64,000 nucleotides of DNA from Octopus vulgaris (lineage: Eukaryota): positions 101,122,001 to 101,186,000 of the forward strand of contig OX597819.1 in assembly GCA_951406725.2 (NCBI GenBank). Direction: 5' to 3'. The notes under the pieces were generated by a model. The model searched no databases and had not been told where the DNA came from. It saw only the letters and a program-made list of their open reading frames with translations. Of this stretch, positions 2,371 through 57,515 are shown piece after piece. Position 1 is the first letter of the stretch; every line of letters starts with the position of its first letter. The translations under genes and the position numbers were made by a program.

Positions 2371-2410
2371 TATGTTTCCGACGAAGAGCTCCGCTCGAAA
2401 CGTCATACCT
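2371..2410 (+). ncRNA. Minimal hammerhead-like motif (CCGACGA core) at a PLE-type 3' end
   Basis: CCGACGA(2378-84)-A-GAGC TCC GCTC-GAAA(2397-2400)-CG-TC, then ~90 bp of tail and (TA)n. Helix I is weak. Confidence 0.55.
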
Positions 2411-2635
2411 CCCTGCTTCCATTTCCTGAGCGCCTATTAATAATAATACTGTAATTGTTCCCTTGTTGTTGTTTTTTTGTTTCCCGTTTGGATTAAAATT
2501 ATATATATATATATATATATATATATATATATATATAAACCAATTGCAGCGTGGAAGGTGTTTATAAGCCATTTAAGAAACACACAAAAGCCGTTCGATT
2601 CACTTCAACATTTAAGTTTATATATATATATATAT

Positions 2636-2978
2636 AAACAATTGCAGTGTGGAAGGTGTTTATAAGGCATTTAAGAAACACACAAAATCGTTAGATTCAC
2701 TTCAACATTTAAATTTAATTTGTCAAAATATTTTCGTCGCTTTGAGACCGCGACCAGTTCACTGACAAAACTTCGTGCTGCATCTGTTTTGTCAGTGAAC
2801 AGGTCGCAGTCTCAAAGCGACGAAAATATTTTGACAAATTAAATTAAAATGTTGAAGTGAATCTAACGGTTTTGTGTGTTTCTTAAATGCCTTATACACA
2901 CCTTCCACGCAGCAATTGTGTTCGTTCCAGCACACGATCTCAGGTCAAGTCAGTCGCTATGCAAGTACATCTCCGTAA
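2636..2978. mobile_element. Fold-back PLE-derived element (arms 2636-2771 and 2786-2919, tail to 2978) inside (TA)n
   Basis: ~135-bp arms with about 8 mismatches and a 14-nt spacer. A third truncated terminus lies at 2537-2619, and the tail end GCAAGTACATCTCCGTAA recurs inverted at ~42815-42832. Confidence 0.85.
2788..2838 (+). ncRNA. Type I minimal hammerhead ribozyme, G3C8 core variant
   Basis: TTTGTCA / GTGAACA-G / GTCGC-AGTCTCAAA-GCGAC / GAAA / ATAT / TT / TGACAAA: 7-bp helix I, 5-bp helix II, palindromic loop III. An inverted copy is in the left arm. Confidence 0.7.
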
Positions 2979-53540: not shown

Positions 53541-56500
53541 TTAAAAAGTAAATAGCGGCGAAAGAAATATACAAATATAAAGATAATAATGAGACTAAGA
53601 ATTAGTGTTAATAATGGTGATGATGTCAACAACAAAAACATTTGCTATATTGATTATAGAATACATACGTATATACACACACATACATATACAGAGTGTA
53701 AATATAATATATATACAAGTGTTTATATAAACGTATGCAAATAAACCTACAATTCCACACTCACATATAAGTACATATCTATGTGTGTATGACTTTCAAT
53801 CTATATACATACATACATACATACATACATACATACATACATATATATATATATATATATATATATATATATATACACACGCATATATATATATATATAC
53901 ACACACACGCATATATATATATATATATATGTATATAGATACGTGTGTGCATATTTGTATACATACATACACCCTATACACATGAAATTGACATTTCATA
54001 TGTAAATATACAAATTTTGTCTTTCACATGTTTGTGTATATATATTTACATCTAATATATGTTTATACATATAAATTGTATACATAGGCATTTGTGTGTG
54101 TGTGCATCTGTGTATTTGTGTGTGTATATGTGTGTGTGTGCATAGCTGTTTGTATTTTATACTTTAATACTGTACACTAACAAACCTGAGTGTTGAAACA
54201 CTCATATCAAAAATAGAAAGGCTGAAAAAAAACTATATATAAATTAATTAATTTTCAACAAATAAGAGGTAAAAATTCATTTTTTAATGCAAATTATATG
54301 TATGGTTTCGTTTGAATAAAACACACAAAATTAAGATGAAATATCCACAAAAAATTAAATGGAACATTATGTCGTGGTATTTCTACTTCTTACTCAACCT
54401 TTCCGTTTACATTCATATATATATATATGTGTGTGTGTGTGTGTGTGTAAATATATATATATATATGGACGCGCGCGTGTGTGTTTGTGTGTTTCCGAGT
54501 GTGTGTGGGTATTTGTGTGTATGTGCTTATATATATATATATATATTCATATATAAATTTGCACACACAGACAATGAGACCTATGTAGATAGCTTGATAT
54601 ATGTAGATAGGCAGACTCCTGAAAACTTGCATAAAGATTTGACGCTCACACATATTTGTATATATAAGAGAGAGAGAGTCTATACGCACATGCATACACA
54701 GAAAAACATTCAGACAGAATATACAAACATACATATATGTGTTGATACAAACATTTACACAACACACGCATATATTTAAATTCCAAAATATTCTATTTAC
54801 ATTTCTTGAAATCTAGAAACAGAAAACACTATTGAGAATCTAAACAAAATCAAAAAAGAAACAATATTATATCACTCTCTATATGTGTGAGTGCGTGTAT
54901 GTGCATGTGTATATTCATATGTCTGAGTGTGTATAGAAAAAAACACAGACACAAACAAGCATAGAACTTAGAAATGATCTACAACCAATATCACTAAAGA
55001 ACTAAATGAAGACAGGATGACACAAGAGAAAGCAATATTGATCAAACTCTCATTAGAATTAGCATATGTTTTACATTTTATTTCAGAATTAGAATGAATT
55101 TTTAAAATATTTATTGTATTTGTAAATGATTTTTTACAATTTTTAAAAATCGCTATTTATTATTATTGTTATCTCTATTGTTATTATTATTATTGTTGTT
55201 GTTGTAGTTGTTATTATTATTATTATTATTATTATTATTATTATTTATTACTGATTTTATTATTATTATTATTATTATTATCATTATAATTATTATTGCT
55301 ATCATCATTATTATTATTGCTATTATTATTATTATTATTATTATTATTATTATTATTATTATTATTATTATTATTATTATTATTATTATTATTATTATTA
55401 TTACTATGTGTGTGTGTGAGGTTATATGTGCATCTGTATGTTATTTATGCGTAAGCACTTCTTTGTTTAACGAATGAAAAACGTATACATAAATACCCGC
55501 ACGATCAGACTGATAGACTCATAACGAATATATATATATAAATATATATATACATATATAACGAATATATATATATAAATATATATATATACATATATGT
55601 ATGTGTGCATATATTTATGTATGTATGTATGTATGTATGTATGTATGTATGTATGTATGTATGTATGTATGTATGTATGTATATGTATGTATGTATGTAT
55701 GTATGTATGTATGTATGTATGTATGTGCGTGTATCACTATATGCGTATACTTTTTGTTTTCCTCTTTATTCTATTTGTTCCTTTGTTTAGAATTCAAGCC
55801 TTAAAATAAAACACATTTGCTCACATTTTTCACAATTTTCATATCGGAAAGAGGAAGAAATAATATTAAGAAGACAATTAAAAAGAAATTTTAAATACAT
55901 ATAATGAACGCCACTATAAAGCTGCAGTATATATATATATATATATATATATATATATATATATATATATATATATATATATATATATATACATCTATAT
56001 ATGTATGCATGTATGTGTGTGTAAAATACGTACACAATTGCACAGTGAGAGGGAGGGGAAAGGACAAGCAAGAGAAAGAGAGAGACCGTGAAAGATATGA
56101 GATGGAGACATAAAGGCAAAAAGATCAAAAAAGAATTAAATAAAAGAAATATCACGCAATAAATATAAACGTTGAATTAAAATTTATTTTCGATCTGACT
56201 TCAAATATATTTTAGATTTTTATTATATTATTAATTTTAGTTATAGTGTGGTATTTTCGTTTGTTCGTCCTATACACGCATGCAGGCACACACACACACA
56301 CACTCACACACACACTCACACATACACAAACACCAAAACACGCACACACACACAAGCACATATATATGTATATATATATTTATACATTTGTACATATATG
56401 TATTAATTTTATATATGTGTGTATGTTTCTATGCATTTATATATATATATATATGTGTACGTATATATATATATATGTATGTATACACCGATATAAAGTT

Positions 56501-57180
56501 ATAGATATCTATACTGCGTGCATATAATATTCGTACATGTGTATATATGTGCATATAAGTGCTCATATATGAATATATCTATATAAATATGTATGTGTAT
56601 GCGTGTAAGTATGCATGTATATATGTGTTTATATATGTATGTTGTATGCATATATATACGAAATTTGTATAATGAAGCTGAAGATTGCTGAAATAAACAT
56701 TGTGCTATTATTAATGTTATTTATCTTAAGCAAATGGCGGAATAATGGAAAACGTTATAACAACGGCCATAGCAATATTTATAATAATTACTGTTATTGC
56801 AGTATTATGAAATACTGGCTGGAATGGGTAAATAATCATGGGAGAGAATATAGTGCCACATTCTGCCATTAACGATACAGCGTCAGGAAAATTAAGGTTA
56901 AACTTCTCGAAATTGTTTTCAATATTGAAGTACATCATATACGAAGTATCACTCTTAACAGATAATTTTTTCTCTCACAGAAATGATGTCAAAATTTACC
57001 AAATATATAAAGTACAAGTAGAAAACTTGTGATAATCGGAATTTTGCTTTTGAAAATAGAGACAAGCAATTTAACCATTGATGTCTATGGAATGGTGAAA
57101 ATTAAGACAATTACAGACCATAGGAATACTTAACATAATTTAAGGATGCCTTACATAAATATATATATGTATATATATAT

Positions 57181-57515
57181 AAATTTACGAATAAGGATAA
57201 TATCGATTTTAAATATCGATATTATCAAGTGGCCAGCATGGGAAAAAATACCATAGAAATGTAATAATTTTTTACAATTAAAAATAAGTGTGTCTGAGAG
57301 ACACCACCATGTCGAAATAGCAGTCAAATTCCTGCTCTAAAAACCACGTTAAATGTTCATATCGCACCATGAGATAAGACAGAGGGACAAAATAGACTAG
57401 CAAGAAGATATTACTGAATATTCAGTAATATGAACATTTAACGTGGTTTTTAGAGTCAGGGATTTGACTGCTATTTCGGCATGGTGGTGCCTCTCAGACA
57501 CCCTTATTTTTAGTT
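57181..57515. mobile_element. Fold-back element in (TA)n with nested palindromes
   Basis: Arms ~57279-57362 and 57428-57515, single-copy tail on the left, (TA)n on both flanks. Confidence 0.8.

What the first reader, a model, noticed from the sequence alone, without database searches (positions are those of the whole stretch)
2371..57515. A zoo of fold-back Penelope-derived elements carrying core-variant hammerhead ribozymes
Seen: at least eight unrelated-looking inverted-repeat elements (2636, 9385, 17648, 18032, 22011, 45165, 50465, 57181) and solo tails (2378, 24136, 41534). Most are nested in (TA)n and several have a one-sided tail. Nearly all hold a type I hammerhead fold pointing outward, usually ~100-150 nt from the terminus, with a palindromic helix III (ATAT, CGATCG, CACGTG, CCGG, CTCCGAG). 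Established: PLE pseudo-LTRs encode minimal hammerheads that can cleave as dimers, and PLE insertions often carry an inverted 5' copy. Inference: these are the minimal products of several co-existing (TA)n-targeting PLE families, possibly self-propagating hairpin RNA units that repeat annotation would mislabel as MITEs.
Basis: partly seen in the sequence, partly recalled or inferred. Interest (0 to 1): 0.8.

Follow-up and report, generated by a model that had tools for sequence, protein, structure and literature searches.

The report
Penelope fold-back ends with variant hammerheads
This stretch of octopus-like DNA holds eight mirror-image repeats that are likely the leftover ends of Penelope-type jumping genes, each mirror likely made afresh at insertion rather than copied as a hairpin; this layout and its tiny predicted hammerhead ribozymes are mostly already known.

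Summary
The eight inverted repeats are real (arms 81-99% alike). Six lie in (TA)n on both sides and four have a one-sided extension. One (45153-48897) wraps a broken, 5'-truncated RT plus GIY-YIG ORF of Neptune/Nematis type, so it is a Penelope-like element (PLE). Six of 8 carry an outward GAAA-palindrome-UH motif (0.66 expected), but a whole hammerhead descriptor survives in only four. The motif at 57294 points inward and is doubtful. Self-propagating hairpins are not supported for the one family tested (2636): contigs of four runs gave 135 different joints, the best at single-locus depth. Depth across this copy's junction was 0.5-3% of depth in the arms. A read-through RNA is also predicted to bury the ribozyme. 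Inverted 5' copies, tails, (TA)n bias, U3-A8, the extra base after A9 and opposite-strand hammerhead pairs are all published PLE traits. Less ordinary: a G3-C8 core as the majority state of a very abundant family, 5' ends that appear to cluster at a CAG|ATG, and a recurring 120-135 nt core-to-terminus spacing. Six small elements could not be linked to an autonomous PLE.

The parts
2371..2499 (+). Solo PLE-like 3' end; hammerhead-like core at 2378 (C3-G8, U4C, extra base after A9, 4-bp helix II, ACGU palindrome, helix I not formed); ends 122 nt from C3 at (TA)19
2538..2618 (-). 80-nt tailless 3' fragment of the E1 family between two TA runs
   Evidence: 93% to 2847-2918
2638..2786 (-). E1 inverted arm, tailless; includes the family's 5' leader (2771-2786) starting CAG|ATG; hammerhead with A9 changed
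2787..2919 (+). E1 direct arm
2788..2838 (+). Predicted minimal type I hammerhead: 7-bp helix I, G3-C8 core (GUGAACA), extra G after A9, 5-bp helix II, AAUAUU palindrome, U17
   Evidence: core letters unvaried in the rows shown
2920..2978 (+). One-sided 59-nt tail, family sequence, then (TA)31
9385..9821 (.). E2, old fold-back; only the GAAA-CGATCG-UC half of a hammerhead is left (intact in the left arm, outward)
17648..17915 (.). E3 fold-back in (TA)n; left 73-nt tail; GAAA-CACGTG-UA in both arms, decayed UGAACAG core in the left arm only
18031..19289 (.). E4, composite in (TA)n: internal arms with a likely GIY-YIG C-terminal remnant; left end has a decayed U3-A8/CCGG motif; right end is unrelated and has a bare CUGAUGA at 19163
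22012..22379 (.). E5 fold-back, AT-rich centre, not in (TA)n; C3-G8 hammerhead at 22254 (+) with 5-bp helix II and 2-bp helix I
24120..24260 (+). Solo PLE-like end with decayed CUGAUGA hammerhead at 24136
41520..41630 (+). Decayed solo relative of the E1 family (G3-C8 kept, A6 and G12 changed)
   Evidence: score 57, shuffled max 39.5
45153..45759 (-). E6 inverted copy of the element's last 596 nt, with U3-A8 hammerhead at 45300
45760..48580 (+). 5'-truncated, broken PLE ORF (RT, CxxxxCxxC linker, GIY-YIG with CCHH); frameshifts near 46270, 46810 and 48490 and a stop at 47273
48288..48897 (+). E6 3' pseudo-LTR; U3-A8 hammerhead 48740-48778 (6-bp helix I with one bulged U, 2-bp helix II, ACCGGU palindrome), then (TA)31
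50465..50616 (.). E7, 152-nt fold-back in (TA)n; whole U4C hammerhead in the left arm (50527, -); helix II deleted in the right arm
50617..50692 (+). E7 one-sided 76-nt tail
57182..57514 (.). E8 fold-back in (TA)n; doubtful inward hammerhead-like motif (57294); perfect palindrome 57408-57431 at the junction

Best explanation
These are likely the 3' ends (pseudo-LTRs) of several Penelope-like retrotransposon families, and the mirror-image shape is likely made anew at each insertion rather than inherited from a hairpin RNA. Shown: E6 is a 5'-truncated RT/GIY-YIG element with an inverted copy of its last 596 nt; E1-family joints differ from locus to locus; both E1 arms share a letter rare in the family. 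Inferred: a PLE RT-endonuclease nicks both strands of a (TA)n or AT-rich target and primes cDNA twice on one pLTR-bearing template, at two start sites downstream of the hammerhead. That gives one tailed and one tailless end, both facing outward. Each cDNA stops early or runs off the RNA 5' end, and the inner ends are joined by repair or snap-back. The hammerheads would be passengers of the pLTR that act, if at all, as dimers or with protein help on the parent element's transcript, not in the fold-back.
For: E6 protein: 385 relatives at E<=0.001, many with RVT_1 and GIY-YIG domains, named ones molluscan; CxxxxCxxC and CCHH invariant in 13 of 13 rows. Outward motif in 6 of 8 elements against 0.66. 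E1 family: 135 joints; of the 15 shown, 10 join the inverted arm to 9 different direct-arm positions (2828-2954), each in 1-2 contigs at depth 29-142, the range of single long contigs; a head-to-tail joint starts at the tail boundary (2919 to 2811); junction depth is 0.5-3% of neighbouring arm depth. Both E1 arms carry C at 2890, which is 1-3.6% of family depth; both E6 arms share one frameshift. Second animal contig: one family, 3 placements, 3 junctions. Core-to-terminus spacing of 122-133 nt in 2378, E1, E5, 24136 and E7 matches RT starts 111-118 nt into an ORF that begins at stem II (PMC11167929). Architecture as in PMC8557442, PMC3846280 and PMC4209133.
Against: No autonomous partner was found for E1, E2, E3, E5, E7 or E8, and only 1 of 8 window families was tested for junction sharing. 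Tails are 59-97 nt, longer than the published 30-40 bp. E8 has no outward hammerhead, E5 is not in (TA)n, and E4's ends are unrelated. Some contigs do span a junction near E1's, with small gaps (table 8). Bare cores are not enriched 110-155 nt from TA runs (19 of 251 against 5.4% background), so the spacing rests on hand-picked motifs. Contig depth is no copy number. No cleavage or expression is shown.
Confidence: 0.8

Rival explanations
1. The fold-backs are self-propagating hairpin RNA units: transcribed whole, cut by their hammerheads and re-inserted with the same junction.
For: The E1 family is very abundant (12578, 9288, 12597 and 1055 contigs laid in four runs). A minority of contigs span a junction close to E1's (tables 2, 3 and 8). 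Junctions lying outside the 252-nt reference would not have been seen.
Against: 135 different joints, best depth 204; letters at the junction are mixed among spanning contigs. The two hammerheads lie on opposite strands, so one RNA holds one, and it is predicted to be locked in the duplex (+66 and +55 kcal/mol to open). Three placements gave three junctions in the second contig. Hammerheads are often decayed in one or both arms.
Confidence: 0.07
2. The small elements are MITEs or foldback DNA transposons with a TA preference, and the hammerhead-like motifs are chance or captured.
For: They are short, non-coding, inverted and TA-flanked. Full hammerhead descriptors are only modestly above chance window-wide (7 against 2.7). 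Six elements lack an ORF link.
Against: The ends are asymmetric, and the tail is family sequence. Inner junctions vary and tailless fragments occur (2538-2618). The motifs face outward in 6 of 8. E6 has the same layout around a PLE ORF. No transposase was seen between any arms.
Confidence: 0.06
3. Single PLE fragments inserted first and were duplicated in inverted form later by repair at fragile (TA)n tracts, or the mirrors are assembly artefacts.
For: (TA)n is self-complementary; some junctions carry palindromes (E5, E6, E8); E6 arms are 99% alike.
Against: Arms are 81-95% diverged in seven elements, which an artefact would not give. Independent short-read runs hold inverted joints. The neighbouring SINE-like repeats in the window did not come up as fold-backs in the self-comparison. 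The tailed and tailless ends fall at the same base in separate copies (2538 and 2638 start alike).
Confidence: 0.07

Closest known systems
Canonical EN+ Penelope-like elements with an inverted pLTR and optional tail (Neptune/Nematis type; PMC8557442 and PMC3846280, passages read)
   Same: 5' truncation, inverted copy at the 5' end, 3' ends outward, tail on one end, (TA)n bias, palindromes at some junctions, RT-linker-GIY-YIG order with CX2-5CxxC (E6).
   Different: Here both copies are mostly reduced to 60-190 nt; tails are 59-97 nt rather than 30-40; E8 may be tail-to-tail; density is 8 in 64 kb.
Minimal hammerheads of metazoan PLEs (Cervera and De la Pena 2014, PMC4209133; results and discussion read, one supplement searched, one not searchable)
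   Same: Type I, short or palindromic helix III, extra base between A9 and 10.1, U3-A8 variant, pairs on opposite strands 100-700 bp apart, mostly single truncated copies, many families per genome.
   Different: A natural G3-C8 core and U4C in PLEs are not in the parts read. Lunse et al. 2017, the likeliest source, could not be read.
Poseidon PAc of Anolis (Frangieh et al. 2024, PMC11167929; main text parts 1-2 read)
   Same: Two RT start sites define the tail, the start lies about 120 nt past the hammerhead, AT-rich targets are cut and extended on both strands, and C3G/G8C is partly active.
   Different: That work is in vitro on another clade; it does not describe miniature fold-backs or fixed 5' ends in a genome.
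Non-LTR retrozymes (bioRxiv 10.64898/2026.07.22.740005; abstract, introduction, methods and passages read)
   Same: Short, non-coding, pLTR-derived, type I hammerhead, many dispersed monomers.
   Different: Retrozymes are head-to-tail tandems with two sense ribozymes; these are head-to-head, with one sense ribozyme per strand.

Membership tests
EN+ Penelope-like element (E6) | RT followed by a C-terminal GIY-YIG endonuclease with CCHH | tested here: met
   ORF broken and 5'-truncated
Neptune/Nematis-type PLE (E6) | CX2-5CxxC motif in the RT-EN linker | tested here: met
   C302, C307, C310 invariant; motif defined in PMC8557442
Neptune/Nematis-type PLE (E6) | RT phylogeny places it in one of the two clades | not tested
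   no named reference set was held
EN+ Penelope-like element (E6) | pLTR with hammerhead and inverted 5' copy | tested here: met
PLE derivative (E1, E2, E3, E5, E7, E8) | Arm is contiguous with, or homologous to, the 3' end of an autonomous PLE | not testable with these tools
   no genome held; loose ends reach no ORF; arms unrelated to E6
PLE derivative (small elements) | Outward hammerhead and optional one-sided tail | tested here: inconclusive
   met for E1, E3 and E7; no tail in E2 or E5; no outward motif in E8
Minimal type I hammerhead | Core N3-U-G-A-N-N8-A with a 3-8 pair, GAAA, UH, helices I and II, palindromic helix III | tested here: met
   whole in E1 right, E5 right, both E6 arms and E7 left (U4C); decayed elsewhere
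Minimal type I hammerhead | Helices conserved or covarying within a family | tested here: inconclusive
   E1 family: core unvaried in the rows shown, changes mostly CpG decay, no compensatory pair seen; the 3-8 pair takes three Watson-Crick forms across families
Minimal type I hammerhead | Self-cleavage | not testable with these tools
   needs an in vitro assay
MITE / TIR DNA transposon | Symmetric termini and a fixed internal structure across copies | tested here: not met
   one-sided tails and variable joints
Non-LTR retrozyme | Head-to-tail tandem with two or more sense hammerheads | tested here: not met
   none of the 8 fold-backs is such a tandem; rare head-to-tail joints exist elsewhere in the E1 family

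The most novel reading that the evidence does not exclude
The E1 family is a fixed-length unit of about 195 nt with a natural G3-C8 hammerhead, amplified to very high copy number as run-off ('strong-stop') cDNA. RT starts at the tail sites near the 5' end of the PLE transcript and copies only back to an RNA end at a CAG|ATG acceptor-like boundary. Two such primings on opposite nicks, on one template, build each fold-back. Thousands of octopod loci would then be an in vivo record of two-ended PLE priming, and E6's arm differences, all downstream of the predicted cleavage site, would mark a template jump at the ribozyme cut.
Probability: 0.3. Interest if true: 0.62.

Novelty: new member of a known kind. 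Interest (0 to 1): 0.4.

Why it matters
The layout is known PLE biology, so the finding is mostly an unusually dense example. It is useful for three reasons. How PLEs make inverted copies and tails is an open question in the papers read, and these tiny, abundant loci make it testable by counting junctions, tail boundaries and arm-shared variants. A G3-C8 core fixed in an abundant family would be a natural instance of a rescue known from mutagenesis and is easy to assay. Short inverted PLE ends could be filed as unclassified TIR or MITE repeats in octopus annotations (not tested) and would form long double-stranded RNA if read through, which may matter in animals known for heavy A-to-I editing (recalled, not tested).

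Tried and rejected
No whole genome is held for the window, so copies could not be extracted. The Rfam scan was swamped by microsatellite matches (150 of 436 rows seen). A pattern scan of metagenome contigs gave 15 loci, all GC-rich with no hammerhead 3' context: chance. Viral contigs held no relative. Earlier scan notes: nothing in 3 look-ups. No RNA holder was listed for E6; run X10 is only guessed to be RNA, so nothing is concluded on expression or editing. The depth drop at 2784 was first read as a fixed 5' end and then set aside, because that column seems to leave out contig ends; only loose ends and joints are used for that point. Bare cores are not enriched near TA runs. The tRNA/SINE-like piece in L035 matched neither Rfam nor ARAGORN. 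The E1 and SINE-like queries found nothing in G001, and E7 gave only a 22-nt match. The E7 monomer energy used a region one base short and is not used. Lunse et al. 2017 is not held, so whether natural G3-C8 is in print is open; searches listed three papers, none of whose titles or abstract openings point to a natural PLE case; of these only PMC11167929 was read.
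Full report
Setting. The window is AT-rich animal DNA with about a fifth in simple repeats. Named relatives of its one PLE protein are molluscan, the best-scoring named hit an octopod at 53%, so I call it octopod-like; the species was not determined and no genome is held.

Observation. 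All eight inverted repeats exist, with arms 81-99% alike. Six have (TA)n on both sides, E2 on one, E5 on none. E1, E3, E7 and E8 have a one-sided extension of 59, 73, 76 and about 92-97 nt. E4 is a composite: only its inner parts mirror each other, and its two ends are unrelated. A GAAA-palindrome-UH motif faces outward in 6 of 8 elements, against a mean of 0.66 and a maximum of 4 in 1000 shuffles. A full descriptor allowing any Watson-Crick 3-8 pair, U4C and one extra base after A9 gave 7 hits against 2.7+/-1.3 shuffled; 6 of the 7 lie in arms, which cover 3579 of 64000 bases. The strict version gave 2 against 0.2. Whole motifs remain in E1 right (G3-C8), E5 right (C3-G8, 2-bp helix I), both E6 arms (U3-A8) and E7 left (C3-G8, U4C). 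The others are decayed. E8's motif points inward, lacks N7 and helix I, and may be chance. Only E1 right folds into helices I and II on its own (z -2.3; 1 of 6 folded).

Link to PLEs. E6 (45153-48897) holds a 5'-truncated, broken ORF with RT, a CxxxxCxxC linker and a GIY-YIG domain with CCHH. PMC8557442 (passages) assigns that linker to the Neptune and Nematis clades and suggests it may aid (TA)n recognition. E6's last 596 nt are repeated in inverted form at its 5' end. E4's arms carry a weak remnant of the endonuclease C-terminus (E 0.09 within the window). The six smaller elements are unrelated to E6 and to each other, except E1 with solo 41534, and could not be tied to an ORF.

Junction test. 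I laid contigs of four runs on 2727-2978, covering part of E1's left arm, the spacer, the right arm and the tail. The family is abundant: 12578, 9288, 12597 and 1055 contigs were laid. The tail and the spacer are both family sequence; the spacer is the upstream continuation of the inverted arm. There were 135 joints. Of the 15 shown, 10 join the inverted arm to nine different positions of the direct arm (2828-2954), each in one or two contigs at depth 29-142, the range of single long contigs in the same table. One joint is head-to-tail from the tail boundary (2919 to 2811). Depth across E1's own junction is 0.5-3% of depth at 2775 and 2805. Depth is not copy number, 120 joints were not shown, and junctions outside the reference are invisible. 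A few contigs span a nearby junction with small gaps, so a minor inherited lineage is not excluded. No other letter is listed at core positions 2795-2801 or 2823-2825 (3 rows not shown), so G3-C8 is the family's majority state; the listed changes are mostly CpG decay. Both E1 arms carry C at 2890, 1-3.6% of family depth, and both E6 arms share one frameshift relative to P0002, so each pair of arms likely came from one template.

Independent check. A chimeric contig reached through one search has an animal-like half of 279 kb. A scan of it gave 3 descriptor hits against 1.9 shuffled, all three in or beside fold-backs. One canonical-core family has three placements with three different inner junctions; two of its inverted arms start at the same base. 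The host is another, unidentified animal, and the sample is small.

5' ends and spacing. In 151, 133 and 146 contigs with loose ends before 2787, shared letters stop about 15 nt upstream of helix I at AG|ATG. A smaller set (28, 30 and 6 contigs in X1, X2 and X10) runs on through a CTAAC, pyrimidine-rich, CAG stretch into (TA)n. This resembles an intron end, as placed at helix I in Drosophila Penelope (PMC4209133), but splicing is untested. The distance from core to terminus is 122-133 nt in 2378, E1 (tailless), E5, 24136 and E7 (tailed), and 151 in E6. In Anolis PAc, RT starts 111-118 nt into an ORF that begins at stem II, two start sites define the tail, and both target strands are cut and extended (PMC11167929). 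These motifs were hand-picked; bare cores show no such enrichment.

Mechanism. Most likely (0.8) a PLE RT-endonuclease nicks (TA)n on both strands and primes twice on one pLTR template, giving a tailed and a tailless end facing outward, and the inner ends are joined at variable points. The nicking and priming steps are inferred from PAc; the variable joints and shared arm variants are shown. The hammerhead is likely a passenger: a fold-back RNA holds only one sense copy, and opening it costs 66 (E1) or 55 (E7) kcal/mol in the prediction. Self-propagating hairpins get 0.07, MITEs 0.06, later duplication or artefact 0.07.

Comparison with print. PMC4209133 (results and discussion; one supplement searched and one not searchable) already reports minimal PLE hammerheads, the extra base after A9, palindromic helix III, U3-A8, and opposite-strand pairs 100-700 bp apart. 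PMC8557442 and PMC3846280 (passages) give the inverted 5' copy, the optional 30-40 bp tail, microsatellite bias, junction palindromes and rarer tail-to-tail forms. PMC3088659 (passages) has natural U3-A8 and U4C. PMC13282606 (passages) lists 31 recently active PLE families in Octopus vulgaris. I saw no natural G3-C8 PLE core in what I read, but Lunse et al. 2017 could not be read and supplements of bioRxiv papers were closed. No paper on miniature PLE fold-backs stood out in the listings.

Verdict. The structures are real and largely as described, the PLE reading is right or likely right for most, and the self-propagation idea fails for the family tested. New member of a known kind; interest 0.4.

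Noticed in passing
window 48288-48884 vs 45164-45759: E6 arms are identical over the inner 496 nt; all 4 substitutions and 2 homopolymer indels lie downstream of the predicted hammerhead cut at 48772/48773 (chance about 0.001 for the substitutions). The last 12-13 nt differ entirely.
   Followed up: partly
window 2971-2978 and 50686-50692: The unrelated E1 and E7 tails both end in CTCCGT next to (TA)n.
   Followed up: no
window 19163: Bare CUGAUGA core 126 nt from a TA run at E4's right end; it may be the decayed end of another family.
   Followed up: partly
window 57196-57226 and 57408-57431: E8 has a 31-nt hairpin in its one-sided extension and a perfect 24-nt palindrome at its junction; possibly a tail-to-tail, self-primed form.
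   Followed up: partly
window 10111-10220, 16629-16835, 30907-31104, 57566-57772; 17012-17169, 27439-27523, 27989-28103, 31141-31298: Two dispersed SINE-like repeat families, 70-84% alike.
   Followed up: no
window 6326-7294 and 20512-20976: Remnants of non-LTR retrotransposon ORF ends; zf-RVT match for the first.
   Followed up: no
window 59217-59282: Small 66-nt inverted repeat (79%) without a hammerhead motif.
   Followed up: partly
G001:C16 (L018-L044): A contig filed in a bacterial genome is chimeric: GC 0.61-0.66 up to about 240 kb, then AT-rich animal-like DNA with PLE remnants and fold-backs.
   Followed up: partly
L035 7956-8076: A 120-nt piece with A-box and B-box-like letters sits exactly at the inner end of an inverted arm; it may be a template switch onto a SINE RNA. 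No Rfam or ARAGORN match.
   Followed up: partly
L035 7534-7557: A solo copy ends in an 8-bp snap-back hairpin before (TA)n.
   Followed up: no
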